Assembly: GCA_963677895.2 (NCBI GenBank)
Contig: CAXXGJ010000038.1
Location: forward strand, 513,059-577,058
Source of the DNA: Treponemataceae bacterium
GTDB lineage: Bacteria > Spirochaetota > Spirochaetia > Treponematales > Rectinemataceae
DNA: 64,000 bases
Direction of reading: 5' to 3'
Shown here one piece after another: positions 30,001-36,000 of this stretch. A program made the position numbers. The first letter of the stretch is position 1; each line of letters begins with the position of its first letter.

Positions 30001-33000
30001 CGGCGAATTCCGTCGGGAAGGGACCGTTGCCCACCCTGGTGGTATAGGCCTTGAACACGCCGAGAATCCTGTCGATGTCGCGGGGGCCTATGCCGCCCTG
30101 GGCGGCCGCGCCGGCGGCGCAGGACATGCCCGAGGAGACGAAAGGATAGGTGCCCGTATCGATGTCGAGGAGAGCGCCCTGGGCGCCTTCGAAGAGGGTC
30201 CAGGAATTCTTGTGGTGGTGGAGATAGGAACTGGCGGGGACGGACATGGGGAGGAGCTTGTCTCTCCACGCGTCCAGAAAGGCCCGGTCCTCGTCGGTCA
30301 GGTTGCGAAGGCGTTCCTCGTCGTCGAGGTCCGCCAGTCGGACGCCGTCGCGCGAGGCCTTGAGGGAGTAGGCGATGCCGATTCCCCTGCCCGTCGTGCC
30401 TATGGGTTTCTTGCGCTGGCTGTCGATCTGCTTGTCCAGCTCCTTGTAGCGCGGCAGGACGATGTGGGCCCGGTCCGAGATGAGGACGCGGCCTTCCCAG
30501 TCGATGCCCTTGGCCTTGAGGCCGTCGAGTTCGATGAAGAGCGCCTCGGGGTCGATGACCATGCCGGAACCCAGGATGACGATCTTGTCCGAATAGAGGA
30601 TTCCCGATGGCACGAGATGGAGGGCATAGCGCGTTCCGGAGAGAACGATCGTATGTCCCGCGTTGGCGCCGCCGGAAAAGCGCACGACGATTCCCGCCTC
30701 GTGGGCGAGATAATCGACGATTTTCCCCTTCCCTTCATCGCCCCATTGGGCGCCGATAATCACTACGTTCATTGTTCTCTCCTGTCGTGTCCGGGAAGTC
30801 TCAGGCAACCCGGGAATGTATGCGAGTCGGTGGAAACCATTCTGACGGTCAGCGTTTTTGCGCGAATACCCGGTAGTTGATTTCCGGGAACAGGTTGTTC
30901 TTCTTTTCCAGGGTCGTCAGCCATTCGGTGTCGACGGTGTTGGCGCAGAGCATCTCGTAGATGCGCGTGAAGTTGCCCACGGATTCCTCGATCTGTCCCT
31001 TGGCGAAAGAACTCGACTGCCCCGAACGGAGCAGGAGGGGCCAGTCTGAGGCCATGGTGAGGAGAGCCTCCCGGGCTCCCTGGTTCAAGATGCGCTCCCG
31101 CAAGCCCGATTCGTTAGGAAAGCGCTCCGCCAGCTCCATCATCCGCTCGATGGCCTGGTGACTGTGTCGGTGCACCCAGTCGTTGGAGCCGTCCAGCCAG
31201 ACTTCGGCGTAGCCGCCCTCCCCCCAGGAGGAGAATTCGGGTTCGGAGACGGGGTTTTCGGGGAAATTGCGATCGTATTCGCTCAGGGTGACAAATTCGA
31301 GATCGTCGTCACCGTGCTTCCTGGCCGCGGTCTTGAAAAGGGCTTCCAGGAACTGAGGTCCCTCGAACCACCAATGTCCGAAAAGTTCCGCGTCGTAGGG
31401 GCAGACGATGAGGGGCTGGCGGTCTTTCATCCAGAAGGAGGCCGCCCTGGCCGCCGCTTTCCTTTCGGCCAGGAATGCGTGGGCATGCTCTATGACCTTT
31501 GCCGCCGCGGAGAGCGGTTCGTAGGGACGCTTTTGGTCGGTATGGCCAGTCACCGCCCAGTACTTGAAGCCGGTGACGCCATGATCGATGCCCTCGCCGA
31601 GGAAGGGTCCCACGTAGGAGGTGTCGAGGTCGTAGCCTATATCCCGGTAGAAATCGCGATAGACCGGATCGGCGGGATAGCCTTCGGTTTCGGACCATAC
31701 GGCTTTCGTGGCCCCGGCGTCCCTGATGAAGACCGTGAGGCCGGAGGGGCTCGTGACGGGCGAAAATGAGCCGTAGAAGGGAGTGGGATGCCCGAGAAGA
31801 GCTCCCCTGGTCGTGACGATCGTGTACTTGATGTTGTAGTCGTGCAGGAGCTCGCCGAGCCCGGGATACCAGCCGAACTGGGGAAGCCAGAATCCCTGCG
31901 GGTTCTTCCCGAATACCGAGCGGTGGGTGACTATGGCGGTTTCCACCTGGGCGTGGATGGCTTGGGGAGCGTCCTGGAAGAGGGGAAGGAAGGCGTGGGT
32001 GGCGCCGCTCGTGAGCACTTCGATCTTGCCTTTCTTGTAGAAGTAATCGAAGGCGGTGAGGATATTCTTCAGATAGAGATTATCAAAATCGTCTTTGTTG
32101 CGCTTGTACAGCGTATGATAAAGCTGCGCGATCGGAGCGAATACCGAATCGCCGGAGAGTCTTTTCTTTTCCTGCGCCGCCAGCTCCAGCTGCAGGTCGA
32201 GATAACGCGAATAGCGATCGCAGAGAATCTTGTCGGAGAGCATGGCCAGCAAGGTGGGAGAAATCGCGATGCTCAGCTTGAAAGGGATGTTTTCGGTTTC
32301 GAGTTTCCTGAAAAGCCTCAGGAGCGGGAGGTATGTCTCCGAAATCGCCTCGAACAGCCAGCGTTCCTCGAAGAACGGGTCAATTTCAGGTTTCCTGACG
32401 AAGGGAAGATGGGCATTGAGCACCAGTGCGAGGCAGGGCTTTTTCATCTTCTTCCTTTACTCTCCATCAGCCATCAGTATCCTGTTTGGATTATCGTCCC
32501 TCGGTTCGGTCAAATGTAATCCTTCAATACCGGAGAGAATCAGCAGGCTCTTCGTAATTTGGGGCATTTGCTGCGCTCGATGCATATAGTAAACCGGCAT
32601 GCGCACTTCGTTGGAACGCGCGAGCGCCCTGATCTTATCACTTTTGTGCAGGCACAAGTCAACCCGATAGGTGGAGCCGGGCTGGGGGATATTGATATAC
32701 CATTTCCAGTCGTCCGGGCTGATGCCTATATCGAAGAAGCTATTCCTGCGCTCGCTCTGCGGATTCAGTTCGATGACCCGCAGGAACAAGCCGGCCGTGG
32801 ACTGCTCTTCGGTGAAGGAAGTTCTTTTCTGCTCCGAAATATCCCAATACGCGTAGATCCATGAAGGATCGCGGGGGAGAGCGCGTATCATCGTCTCGTT
32901 ATAGCGTTCCGGAATGCCTGAATGGTCGTGCGAAGGATAGGGGGCATAGGATCCGCCGGAGAGCTTTTTTTCCTCGACATGGCCGGTCCCGTCATGGCTG

Positions 33001-36000
33001 AACACTCTCTCCCTGTCGTCGTCCTCCAGCGCCGAGATTATTTCCTCGATGATGAAGGGCCGGTCCAAACCGTCAGGGATATAGATACCCATACGTTCAG
33101 CCAGAAGCATCAGCTCCTGATCGGAAAGCAGCGAAAGCTTTTCGGGGTTCACGCCCTTATAGTGAAAAATGCGAGCGTGCTTGTCAAGTATGAAGGGAAG
33201 CTTTAGGGCGATACCGAGGGCAACTCGGCTCTTTTCCCCGAAGGCCTTCGCCTTCTTCTCGTCTTCTGCGGCTTTTGCAGGGGGGAGAGGCCTGAAGTCC
33301 TGAATATCATGAGGATGGCGGCTTCCAGCTCCACGCGAGGGGGATTCAGGGGCTGGATGAATGATCGGGCCGAGAGAAGAGCAGTACGGAAGGCTTCGCT
33401 GGAATCTTCGAACGTGCCCCCTTCGGGTACGATCCAGGATTTCAGGAACCAGGAAAGGATCACCGAGAGTTTTTGCTGCCCCCTGGACGCGGAATCCGCG
33501 TCGGTCTCCTCGATATCACTGTCGCTTACCTCTATCCGCAGGGCGTCGAGGGCTTGGAGGTCGGCGAAAAGTTTCTGCGAGTAACCGAGGTCAGTCTGGA
33601 TTTTCGCCCATACGGAGGGCACGAAATATTCCAGAAGCCTGAATTCGCTTAATATTCGGAAGATGCGCTCCGATTTCCCCGAAGCCAGAATCTTGAAGAA
33701 TTCTTCCGTCATCCTCGAGCTGCTTACGTCGGCCAATAGATGGGCGTCTTTCTTTATGGCGTGCTTCAGCGCGAAAGGAATCTTGAAATCCGCCAGAGCC
33801 CCGTATTTAACCCCGCGTATGATTCGCACAGGGTCTTCCTTGAAGATCCGGTTGAGGGGGATGATCGGCTTGATCCTTCCGGCCTTGAGATCCTTGAATC
33901 CCCCCACGAAGTCGACGAGGGTCTGGTCTGTGGGGTCGTAGTACAGCGCGTTGAACGTGAAATCCCGGCGAAGCACGTCCTCGTCGATGCTGCCGAATTC
34001 GTTGCCCACCGATCCGTTCTTGATGGATCTGAACGTGCTCACTTCGAATATCTCGCCGCCGGCCATGATATGGACGAGACGGAATCGTTTGCCGATGATG
34101 CGGGCGTTGCGGAAAAGCTTTCTGATCTTGGTGGGCAAAGCGTCGGTGACCAGATCGAAATCCTTGGGTTTCCTGTCCTGCACAAGGTCGCGCACGGCGC
34201 CGCCCACGATATATGCCTGATGGCCAGCACCCTTGAGACGCTCGATGATCCTGACAGCCTCCGGATCGATCATGGTCTTCTTAATGCCATGTTCTTGTTC
34301 CGTATAGATCAGCGCTTGTTCGACAGGTTTGCCTTTTTTGTCTCTACGATATCGGATGAACACAGAAAAGCCTCACTCGTTCAACATAATGCGAACCCCG
34401 AATCCTGCTTGGATTTGCCGCTTGAAAACCGGATCAATTATGCGATTATACGCCGCGTTTATGCAATATGCCGCAAAAACCAGTCGGTGATATCGGACAG
34501 GACCTCGTCCTTGTTCAATTCGTTGATGCTCTCGTGCCTGCCGCCCTCGTAACATTTCGATTCGAAATCGACAAGCCCCAATCCCCTGAAGGTGCGCGAT
34601 ATCATTTCGAATCCAGCTTTCATCCCGGCGACGGGATCCTCCGATCCGCCGATCAAGTATATCGGAAGATTCGTCGGGATGCTGTCCAGGAAACTTTCGG
34701 AATAGACTTGTTCGAGACCATGCATCAGGTCGCCGTAGAAACCGAAGGAGCAGATGAAATTGCATTTGGGGTCGGCGATGTATTTATCGACGTGTTCCGG
34801 GTCCCTGCTGATCCAGTCCGATCCTGTCCTCCTGTTCTTGACGGTCTTGGCATAATTGCCGAAGGTCATCGAGCGGAGAATCCTCGCCGGAGCGTGTCCG
34901 CCTTTGAACAGCTTGCCGATCTTCACGACGAACTTTCCGGCGAGAGCCAGGAAGGGCGTCGGTTTCTCGGGCAGTCCCGATAGAATCACGCCATCCATAT
35001 ACTTGCCGTATATGCCGCTGAGAGCGAGACAAAGAATTGCCCCGAAGGAATGCCCGAAATAATAGAGAGGAAGACCTCCCTGCTCCTTCGCGGCGAAGTC
35101 GCCCAGCTCCATAAGATCCTCGACGACTCTCTCAAACCCGTTCGAATCGGCGAGATAGCCTCGATTCGCGCCGTCGTCGGTATCTCCATGACCGCGGAGA
35201 TCGGGTATGTAAACGGCTAGGCCGGTATCGGCCAGGGCTTCCGCCAGATGGGAGTAGCGGCCCCCGTGTTCATTCATGCCATGCCCGATCACGACAACGG
35301 CTTTAGCCTGCGTGGAGGGAATCACTTTTTGATACGCGATCAACTTTCCATCGGATGCGGGAAATCTCAAACCACTTTTTGTCACCACAATCCTCCATAG
35401 GAACCCAGGTCATTACAGGACATATATAATCAGATCTCCCCAGTACGGGTCTGCTTTATTCTCGGTATATTCGCGGGAATAATTTACCATGGATTGGGCA
35501 GAAATCCCAAGGCCTCTGAAATGGTGCTGGCGCAAGATCGGTCCATGGCGGTATACTCGTGCCGCGGAGAAAATTCTGAAGACATTCATATCACATGGCA
35601 GGGAAGAGACGCTCGCGTTAGGGGAACTCATAGGAAAATCGGTTCCCGGCGGTGCCGTCATCGTCTACAGGGGCGATCTCGGCGCCGGCAAAACCACCAT
35701 GAGCAAGGGCATCGCGAAAGGTCTCGGGATAACCGAGGAAGTGACCTCCCCTACCTACACGATCGTATCCGAATATAAAGGCAGACTCACGCTCTACCAT
35801 ATCGACGCTTACCGGCTTTCGGGAGAAGCCGACTTTTTCGAAATCGGCGGGCTGGAAATGCTTGAGGAACCCGGCAGCCTCTGCCTTATCGAATGGGGCG
35901 AAAGGCTGCCCGAAATAGTGAACGAAAGAACGGCCATCATAGAAATACAATTCGAAAAAGACGACAACCGCCGGATTTCCCTCCAGGGAGCCTGGCTGGA

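What a model noticed while it worked through the whole genome (the two positions that open the first line are those of the whole stretch)
30849..33152. DUF4912: a conserved partner gene of GH57 glycogen branching enzymes
g03047 (231 aa, DUF4912) ends 10 nt before the GH57-type 1,4-alpha-glucan branching enzyme g03046 on the same strand; it has a short helical N-terminal module, a disordered linker and a fibronectin-III-like beta-sandwich. Boldest reading: DUF4912 is a non-catalytic subunit that tethers the GH57 branching enzyme to the growing glucan (or to another glycogen enzyme) and sets branch spacing. New: a function and partner for a domain found in about 12,800 bacterial genomes.
Evidence so far: Pfam DUF4912 84-190 (E 4e-30); GH57 7-397 + BE_C 428-528 in g03046. 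Table neighbours.tsv: DUF4912 lies within two genes of BE_C in 6753 of 10140 genomes that have both (0.67) and of Glyco_hydro_57 in 7028 of 11705 (0.60); family present in 693 of 834 Treponematales and 12,844 bacterial genomes. 81 homologue clusters of 127-405 aa, none with a second Pfam domain. Model from 23 sequences: pLDDT 72 overall, mostly 85-92 in the sandwich (residues 88-184); best PDB matches are FN3 domains, E 6e-5, target TM 0.6-0.68. Two papers hold the word DUF4912, neither on its function by title and abstract (listing only, call 178).
(Added by a program. Inside this text positions count along the whole contig: contig position 513,059 is position 1 of the stretch shown here. "Call 12" and the like, gene names such as g00115 and contig names such as C1 are that model's own, and its searches are not shown. 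The text may have been shortened before it was handed on; [...] marks where a part breaks off. The agent that wrote the report below was given it as the finding of a first reader that could run no searches.)

Follow-up and report, generated by a model that had tools for sequence, protein, structure and literature searches.

The report
Lid subunit of dead branching enzyme
This small protein of unknown function is predicted to clamp onto a glycogen-branching-type enzyme and reach into its active site; here that enzyme lacks its key catalytic residue, so the pair is likely a non-cutting scaffold, while in other bacteria the small protein may be the missing part that explains why most such enzymes work poorly alone.

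Summary
Both genes are real and coupled. The scan has noted this pairing before on other DNA (25 findings, 23 genomes).

One correction: the partner is not a working branching enzyme here. Its nucleophile is Gln190 where AmyC has Glu185, and 90 of 96 Treponematales-clade rows lack a catalytic residue, against 0 of 33 outside. Both genes are still under purifying selection.

New evidence favours a physical subunit:
- A complex model scores 0.93 against a best control of 0.00.
- The RDPxW motif, a C-terminal helix and a conserved ExxK[YF] linker dock where solo AmyC is disordered, truncated or open, and the linker lies in the cleft.
- All 42 DUF4912 genomes among 91 sampled carry the enzyme, 21 of them unlinked.

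The 'tether that sets branch spacing' is not supported at this locus. Genome G060 keeps the pair with no glycogen enzymes found. Best reading: an accessory lid subunit of loop-less GH57 enzymes, kept here as a likely non-catalytic scaffold. No binding or activity has been measured.

The parts
33159..33187 (-). Likely sigma-70 promoter (TTGACA, 17 nt, CACTAT) ending 6 nt before the GTG start, implying a leaderless mRNA (inferred)
   Evidence: Sequence. Pattern in 50 of 50 own-clade loci with enough flank, 11 of 45 other Treponematales rows, 3 of 31 intact-enzyme rows; 2 occurrences in the 64 kb window. The consensus scan did not list it, as the -10 box matches only 3 of 6.
32457..33152 (-). DUF4912 gene, 231 aa, predicted accessory subunit
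   Evidence: dN/dS 0.03-0.11 in 7 own-clade pairs
33000..33152 (-). N-terminal helical module (residues 1-51), Rho_N-like in shape but acidic; not in the predicted interface, so free for a third partner (inferred)
   Evidence: Model; Rho_N weak in 10 of 55 members, best E 0.004; median net charge -7 vs +1 to +11 in 18 Rho_N-bearing homologues; interface list
32949..32990 (-). Linker 'lid/plug' (residues 55-68, motif ExxK[YF], here EEKKL), predicted to lie in the GH57 active-site cleft; outside the Pfam boundary
   Evidence: motif in 50 of 51 own-clade rows, 21 of 27 intact spirochaete rows, 104 of 118 non-spirochaete homologues (shuffles 5%)
32583..32903 (-). FN3-like beta-sandwich (PF16258, residues 84-190)
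32859..32879 (-). RDPxW docking motif (residues 92-98), predicted to bind GH57 residues 413-418
   Evidence: Lowest-error contacts, 0.4-0.6 A; W98 invariant in 129 rows
32526..32567 (-). C-terminal helix LLxLSG (residues 196-209), predicted to pack on the short loop stub of the GH57 protein (222-228)
30849..32447 (-). Loop-less, AmyC-type GH57 branching-enzyme-like protein, 532 aa, lacking the nucleophile
   Evidence: dN/dS 0.02-0.05
31878..31880 (-). Gln190 codon (CAG) at the position of the catalytic nucleophile Glu185 of AmyC
   Evidence: Gln in 46 and His in 5 of 51 own-clade rows, with both CAG and CAA codons
31392..31394 (-). Asp352, acid/base position, retained
   Evidence: 51 of 51 own-clade rows
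31194..31211 (-). GH57 residues 413-418 (AmyC 407-412, holding Trp411, not visible in the solo crystal): main predicted docking site

Best explanation
DUF4912 is likely a dedicated accessory subunit that is predicted to clamp onto the loop-less GH57 branching-enzyme fold and lay a lid peptide in its active-site cleft; at this locus the GH57 protein lacks its catalytic nucleophile, so the pair likely works as a non-catalytic glucan-binding scaffold or regulator. Steps: (1) shown: the genes are adjacent, co-inherited and under purifying selection; (2) shown: Glu-to-Gln at the nucleophile, with the aromatic clamp and Asp352/Glu354 kept; (3) predicted: three-point binding by RDPxW to 413-418, by the C-terminal helix to the loop stub 222-228, and by the ExxK[YF] linker in the cleft; (4) inferred: in bacteria with an intact enzyme the subunit completes the open acceptor side that Thermus-type enzymes close with their own loop; (5) inferred: here glucan and lid compete for the dead cleft, and the acidic N-terminal module holds a third protein, best candidate the second degenerate GH57 (4-alpha-glucanotransferase-like).
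For: Complex: score 0.93, 0.93, 0.92 vs best of 3 controls 0.00; the mark was reached by 116 of 157 solved and 2 of 215 mismatched pairs (only roughly applicable with my alignments); runs agree in at least 69% of contacts; partner pLDDT at least 71. No solved DUF4912 relative was found by sequence (0 hits at E<=5), so recall of a like complex is unlikely. The four peculiarities of solo AmyC named in PMC6616209 section 17 (short loop 213-220, helix with buried W246, lid 2, invisible W411) map by alignment to window 218-225, 244-251, 472-477 and 417, all in the predicted interface. Co-inheritance: 42 of 42 DUF4912 genomes have BE_C, 21 unlinked; 46 of 91 have neither. The 3 apparent enzyme-only genomes carry a divergent 145-aa homologue directly upstream (E 4e-10 to 4e-12) that lacks RDPxW, and their enzyme lacks the matching GYxEVWL...NDW segment. 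The lid motif is kept where the cleft is kept and essentially absent in the 45 rows where it decays. Thermus, a loop-bearing type, has BE_C but no DUF4912 match; Thermotoga has both (controls). Loop-less enzymes are 92% of the class and give 9-14 vs 480-550 mU/mg (PMC9291813 section 3.2). The second GH57 is in 47 of 47 Treponematales tested, G060 included.
Against: No binding, activity or expression data. Lid and cleft loss is in effect one evolutionary event, and kin are not independent; 6 of 129 rows are duplicates. The lid motif is missing in 6 Sphaerochaeta-type and 6 non-spirochaete rows whose enzyme is fully intact, so it is not obligatory. Interface residues are only modestly more conserved than the rest (0.81 vs 0.74 GH57, 0.66 vs 0.58 DUF4912) and not at all in the decayed group. 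The linker has low confidence in the solo model. The second GH57 is missing with this query from many genomes that have the pair. G147 has DUF4912 but no BE_C match, though its contig ends 260 nt after the gene. Retention in G060 argues that the role in this order need not involve glycogen at all.
Confidence: 0.58

Rival explanations
1. The pair in Treponematales has left alpha-glucan metabolism and serves as a purely protein-binding scaffold (with the second degenerate GH57) for some other conserved process.
For: G060 (one contig, 99% complete) keeps DUF4912, the BE-like protein and the second GH57, with no glgA, glgC, glgB, phosphorylase, GH77 or GH13 match. In 45 rows W251, W408, W359, D352 and E354 decay while dN/dS stays 0.04-0.16. 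The N-terminal module is more conserved in this order than outside it.
Against: In the window's own 51-row clade the whole glucan clamp is kept (8-9 of 9 residues in every row), and glgA and glgC are present in 58 of 61 genomes each.
Confidence: 0.13
2. The genes are co-regulated members of one pathway without a stable complex.
For: Shared promoter-like element and 9-nt spacing; half of the phylum sample is unlinked; models can lay chains together regardless.
Against: Score 0.93 vs 0.00; matched loss of the docking motifs in both partners; co-inheritance when unlinked.
Confidence: 0.09
3. The pair still branches glycogen, with a carboxylate from the DUF4912 lid (Glu60/Glu61) or Glu354 standing in for the lost nucleophile.
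For: The genome has GlgC, GlgA, GlgX, phosphorylase and two GH77, but GH13 GlgB was found in only 2 of 61 genomes. D352 and E354 are kept in 51 of 51, and the lid lies in the cleft.
Against: Gln190 and its neighbours 185-194 are not among the listed interface residues. H11, F471, R485 and H489 are lost too. The EE motif is equally present beside intact enzymes. Sister lineages lose the whole cleft yet keep glgA/glgC. An unassigned 1248-aa GH13 with an intact triad, in 45 of 47 Treponematales and 0 of 21 'same phylum' genomes, is a candidate replacement.
Confidence: 0.07
4. One reading: DUF4912 binds the glucan through its FN3-like domain, tethers an active branching enzyme and sets branch spacing.
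For: FN3-like fold. Longer homologues add a Glucodextran_B Ig domain. W103 and W151 are conserved and not in the interface list. It could hold for intact enzymes elsewhere.
Against: The partner here lacks the nucleophile; the conserved face binds the enzyme in the model; the top fold matches are generic FN3 domains; the pair is kept in G060.
Confidence: 0.07
5. The N-terminal module binds RNA or DNA like Rho_N and links the GH57 protein to nucleic acid.
For: Weak Rho_N matches in 10 of 55 members; clear Rho_N in 22 of 120 distant homologues; PMC13613805 calls the cyanobacterial form 'Rho-like' (passage); pcnB lies upstream in 23 loci.
Against: The module is acidic in all three spirochaete-dominated groups (median -6 to -7), unlike the basic Rho_N-bearing homologues; no Rho_N match in the window protein; the promoter-like element separates it from pcnB.
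Confidence: 0.06

Closest known systems
Thermotoga maritima AmyC (PDB 2B5D), loop-less GH57 glycogen branching enzyme
   Same: Best PDB match (E 2e-122); same short loop, gatekeeper tryptophans and GGY-E-WL-G-NDW segment; T. maritima has a DUF4912 match (control; adjacency there not tested).
   Different: AmyC has Glu185, His10 and Phe466 and low branching activity; the window protein has Gln, Asn and Leu. The parts of the AmyC papers that I read describe the enzyme alone.
GH57 'BE-like' proteins (Martinovicova and Janecek 2018, PMC6037648)
   Same: Lack one or both catalytic residues; most of the 60 listed are Treponema (Table S1).
   Different: The WLPQ subtype is not in that table (0 hits) and keeps the CSR-4 glutamate and the whole clamp. 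No partner or function is given in the parts read. The 2020 follow-up paper was not held.
Loop-bearing GH57 branching enzymes (Thermus TT1467, Thermococcus TK1436, Pyrococcus)
   Same: Same fold and cleft; a loop with an aromatic tip covers the cleft, the role proposed here for the DUF4912 lid.
   Different: The loop is in cis; the Thermus and Pyrococcus sequences lack the predicted docking segment; no DUF4912 match in T. thermophilus (control).
Pfam DUF4912 (PF16258), including cyanobacterial 'Rho-like' Rho_N + DUF4912 proteins
   Same: Member over the cut-off (102.6 vs 29.4 bits).
   Different: Short spirochaete form: acidic N-terminal module, no second Ig domain; lid motif and docking helix lie outside the Pfam model.

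Membership tests
GH57 glycogen branching enzyme (EC 2.4.1.18) | GH57 barrel plus BE_C domain | tested here: met
   Pfam, PDB match, model pLDDT 93.9
GH57 glycogen branching enzyme (EC 2.4.1.18) | Glutamate nucleophile in CSR-3 | tested here: not met
   Gln190 aligns with AmyC Glu185
GH57 glycogen branching enzyme (EC 2.4.1.18) | Aspartate acid/base and ELFGHW in CSR-4 | tested here: met
   D352, E354-W359
GH57 glycogen branching enzyme (EC 2.4.1.18) | HxHLP in CSR-1 (first His polarises the acid/base) | tested here: not met
   NAHLP. Five otherwise intact rows also have Asn, so this alone is weak.
GH57 glycogen branching enzyme (EC 2.4.1.18) | Gatekeeper tryptophans; Phe after CSR-5 (AmyC F466) | tested here: inconclusive
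   W30, W251, W408, W417 kept; Phe replaced by Leu471
GH57 glycogen branching enzyme (EC 2.4.1.18) | Branching activity | not testable with these tools
   Needs an assay
GH57 BE-like proteins | Branching-enzyme sequence with one or both catalytic residues substituted | tested here: met
   groups with Treponema rows in a 96-row clade, support 100 (FastTree)
GH57 BE-like proteins | CSR-4 glutamate not conserved (as stated in PMC9291813) | tested here: not met
   E354 kept in 51 of 51 own-clade rows: a less decayed subtype
Loop-less (AmyC-type) GH57 | No 19-residue flexible loop between CSR-3 and CSR-4 | tested here: met
   Gap against Thermus and Pyrococcus, none against AmyC
DUF4912 (PF16258) | Profile match over the curated cut-off | tested here: met
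   102.6 vs 29.4 bits
Rho_N (PF07498) | Profile match; basic helical module | tested here: inconclusive
   No match in the window protein, weak in 10 of 55 relatives; acidic, not basic; the module was not folded and searched alone
Carbohydrate-binding module | Fold match to a CBM and glucan binding | tested here: inconclusive
   Top matches are FN3 domains of generic kind; binding not testable here

The most novel reading that the evidence does not exclude
DUF4912 is the missing catalytic lid, supplied in trans, for the 92% of GH57 branching enzymes that lack their own loop: the true enzyme is a heterodimer that has only been assayed as half. In Treponematales the heterodimer lost catalysis and became a scaffold of two dead GH57 proteins bridged by DUF4912, kept even without glycogen genes, while an unassigned 1250-aa GH13 took over branching.
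Probability: 0.33. Interest if true: 0.86.

Novelty: new variant of a known kind. Interest (0 to 1): 0.72.

Why it matters
PMC9291813 leaves open why the loop-less majority of GH57 branching enzymes is about 40-fold less active and what it does in vivo. The model turns this into one cheap experiment: add the upstream protein to AmyC and re-assay, with named residues to mutate on both sides. These enzymes are studied for starch modification, so a missing activator or brake would matter in practice. Separately, an order of spirochaetes keeps glgA/glgC (58 of 61 each) with no recognisable active branching enzyme, and conserves a dead pair even where no glycogen genes were found. That points to an unknown branching activity and to an unknown non-catalytic role.

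Tried and rejected
Sequencing error at Gln190: rejected, since Gln occurs in 46 rows with two codons. Pseudogene decay: rejected, dN/dS 0.02-0.05 (the script stopped after 7 pairs, and 12 more pairs were run). 'Three enzyme-only genomes': revised after finding a divergent homologue upstream in each. IQ-TREE did not finish, so the tree is FastTree only. ESM Atlas gave no usable hit for residues 1-55 or 78-215. PDB by sequence gave nothing for DUF4912 or for the giant GH13 as a single query; its profile gave only weak, mixed GH13 hits, best E 3e-10, so its activity is unassigned. No RNA holder listed. A phylum-level sample outside spirochaetes was not obtained, so breadth beyond spirochaetes rests on 7 loci and 120 proteins without context. 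Paper searches with recalled locus tags gave nothing relevant. Searches for a published partner gave nothing: DUF4912, AmyC + interacting protein, GH57 + heterodimer + AlphaFold (0 papers), Treponema + GH57 + pseudoenzyme, all seen as listings only. Subscription papers (Janecek 2020, Polacek 2025; titles only, from a reference list) may say more on BE-like proteins.
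Full report
Observation. The two ORFs are as described: 32457-33152(-), 231 aa, PF16258 at 84-190; and 30849-32447(-), 532 aa, GH57 plus BE_C, with 9 nt between them. A 130-row model of DUF4912 gives helices at 3-51, a low-confidence linker, a sandwich at 88-184 and a helix at 198-206 (pLDDT 78). The sandwich matches generic FN3 domains. Neighbours are pcnB upstream and purA downstream. 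Names of source records (Rectinemataceae, Treponema) place the lineage in Treponematales.

Linkage. P0002 matched 60 of 61 related genomes. In 60 loci chosen by that match, DUF4912 lies directly upstream in 59; the other is cut by a contig end. In 80 loci chosen by DUF4912, the enzyme follows directly in 79, the last ending 260 nt downstream; these include 6 Clostridia- and Elusimicrobia-labelled records. In an even sample of 91 genomes of the phylum, 42 had PF16258 and 45 BE_C; all 42 had both and 46 had neither. By coordinates 20 pairs are adjacent, 1 is about 3 kb apart and 21 are unlinked, some on one chromosome far apart. Four families with mixed presence were concordant. The three enzyme-only genomes proved to carry a divergent 145-aa homologue just upstream. 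So co-inheritance does not depend on gene order. Kin are not independent, and I give no P value.

The partner is a pseudoenzyme here. Against AmyC (E 2e-122) the nucleophile Glu185 is Gln190, His10 is Asn11 and Phe466 is Leu471; roles are from Table 1 of PMC6616209 (section 17 read). On a FastTree of 129 rows (123 distinct), one 96-row clade (support 100) holds 90 rows that lack Glu190 or Asp352, while all 33 rows outside keep both. The window's 51-row subclade has Gln (46) or His (5), yet keeps 92 of the 108 positions conserved in intact enzymes, including the aromatic clamp, D352 and E354. The other 45 rows keep only 37 and lose W251, W359, W408, D352 and E354. dN/dS is 0.02-0.05 for the GH57 gene and 0.03-0.11 for DUF4912 in 7 own-clade pairs, and 0.04-0.16 for the GH57 gene in 7 pairs of the other Treponematales group. 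Such 'BE-like' proteins are known: PMC6037648 lists 60, mostly Treponema (passages, section 10 and supplement parts 13-14 read), and PMC9291813 excluded 50 of 2497 as inactive (sections 10 and 11 read). The WLPQ subtype is not in that table.

Complex. With paired 129-row alignments the complex scored 0.93, 0.93 and 0.92 against a best control of 0.00; runs shared at least 69% of contacts and partner pLDDT was at least 71. That mark was reached by 116 of 157 solved and 2 of 215 mismatched pairs, roughly applicable here. This supports binding; it does not show it. Three patches bind: RDPxW (92-98) on GH57 413-418, the helix 200-207 on 222-228 and 332-340, and the linker 55-68. The tool lists residues per chain and only the best pairs, so placing the linker in the cleft is my inference from the remaining listed GH57 residues (14-15, 26-30, 251, 266, 351-359, 404-412, 468-478). 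The N-terminal module is not listed. Independent of the model, PMC6616209 describes solo AmyC as having a short loop (213-220), a distorted helix burying W246, a shifted lid 2, an invisible W411 and an open acceptor end. By the alignment these are window 218-225, 244-251, 472-477 and 417, all in the interface.

Matched changes. The linker motif ExxK[YF] (here EEKKL) is in 50 of 51 own-clade rows (31 with Tyr/Phe) and 21 of 27 intact spirochaete rows. The pattern hit 5 of the 45 decayed rows, and by eye only the basal L044 is the true motif. It is in 104 of 118 non-spirochaete homologues (120 examined, 2 without the anchor; shuffles 5%; these are the best hits of one query, so related). Against this, 12 intact rows lack it. 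The three divergent DUF4912 proteins lack RDPxW and their enzymes lack the GYxEVWL...NDW segment. Thermus and Pyrococcus enzymes, which have their own loop, also lack that segment, and T. thermophilus gave no DUF4912 match (control).

Metabolic context. glgA and glgC were each found in 58 of 61 genomes, GH13 GlgB in 2. G000 also has GlgX over the cut-off, a phosphorylase and two GH77. G060 (one contig, 1.1 Mb, 99% complete) gave no match for any of six alpha-glucan families yet keeps the pair and a second GH57. That second protein is 4-alpha-glucanotransferase-like, degenerate at the catalytic positions in relatives, and present in 47 of 47 Treponematales tested but patchy elsewhere. A 1248-aa GH13 with intact DAAM/EAF/NPD motifs occurs in 45 of 47 Treponematales, as a 550-aa partial match in 2 'same class' genomes, and in 0 of 21 'same phylum' genomes. 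That it replaces the branching enzyme is a guess from distribution only.

Expression. TTGACA-17-CACTAT ends 6 nt before the GTG; the pattern is in 50 of 50 own-clade loci, though the consensus scan missed it. An own promoter and a leaderless mRNA are inferred.

Mechanism. Shown: coupling, conservation, loss of the nucleophile. Predicted: three-point binding with a lid in the cleft. Inferred: in intact loop-less enzymes the subunit closes the acceptor side (activator, somewhat more likely given 9-14 vs 480-550 mU/mg) or plugs it with Lys63 (brake). Here it makes a non-catalytic glucan-binding scaffold whose acidic N-terminal module (median charge -7) holds a third protein.

Novelty. The gene pairing was noted by this scan in 25 findings, and I took from them the link to loop-less, weakly active enzymes. 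My two word searches for a complex model and one for the Treponematales dead enzyme returned no earlier finding with all words. In print, DUF4912 appears in two held papers, seen as passages: a cotton table and a remark that the cyanobacterial Rho_N form has no known function. PMC11046441 and PMC13515694 (passages) and PMC11206854 (abstract) showed no partner. Subscription papers were not visible. Verdict: new variant of a known kind, interest 0.72.

Noticed in passing
G000:C18:452745-456538 (-), locus L173:3796-7539: Unassigned 1248-aa GH13 with intact catalytic motifs, in 45 of 47 Treponematales and 0 of 21 'same phylum' genomes, often beside a GH77-like gene or a conserved ~920-1000-aa ORF; candidate replacement branching enzyme.
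   Followed up: partly
G000:C38:177155-179110 (+), locus L003: Second GH57, 4-alpha-glucanotransferase-like and degenerate in relatives, in 47 of 47 Treponematales including G060; candidate third partner.
   Followed up: partly
L061 and L157 (G060): A 1.1-Mb single-contig genome keeps DUF4912 and both degenerate GH57 genes with no alpha-glucan enzymes found.
   Followed up: partly
L077, L080, L087-L090 and others (29 loci): In spirochaetes with an intact enzyme the pair sits directly upstream of mraZ-, rsmH- and murF-like genes on the same strand (gene names recognised from recalled sequence features).
   Followed up: no
L219:989-1468, L220:3015-3449, L221:995-1471: Divergent 145-aa DUF4912-like genes missed by Pfam, overlapping the start of an intact GH57 that lacks the docking segment.
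   Followed up: partly
window 33159-33187 (-): Conserved promoter-like element implying a leaderless transcript in the window's clade; several intact-enzyme rows show a GGAGG site instead.
   Followed up: partly
window 27999-35388 (-): Local order: alpha/beta hydrolase, pcnB, DUF4912, GH57, purA, guaA-like; hydrolase and pcnB-like genes are conserved upstream in 22-23 loci, and a flagellin-like gene lies opposite in 15 relatives.
   Followed up: no
L121, L130, L135; P0231-P0350: Non-spirochaete DUF4912 proteins add a C-terminal Glucodextran_B-like Ig domain and often a basic Rho_N domain.
   Followed up: partly
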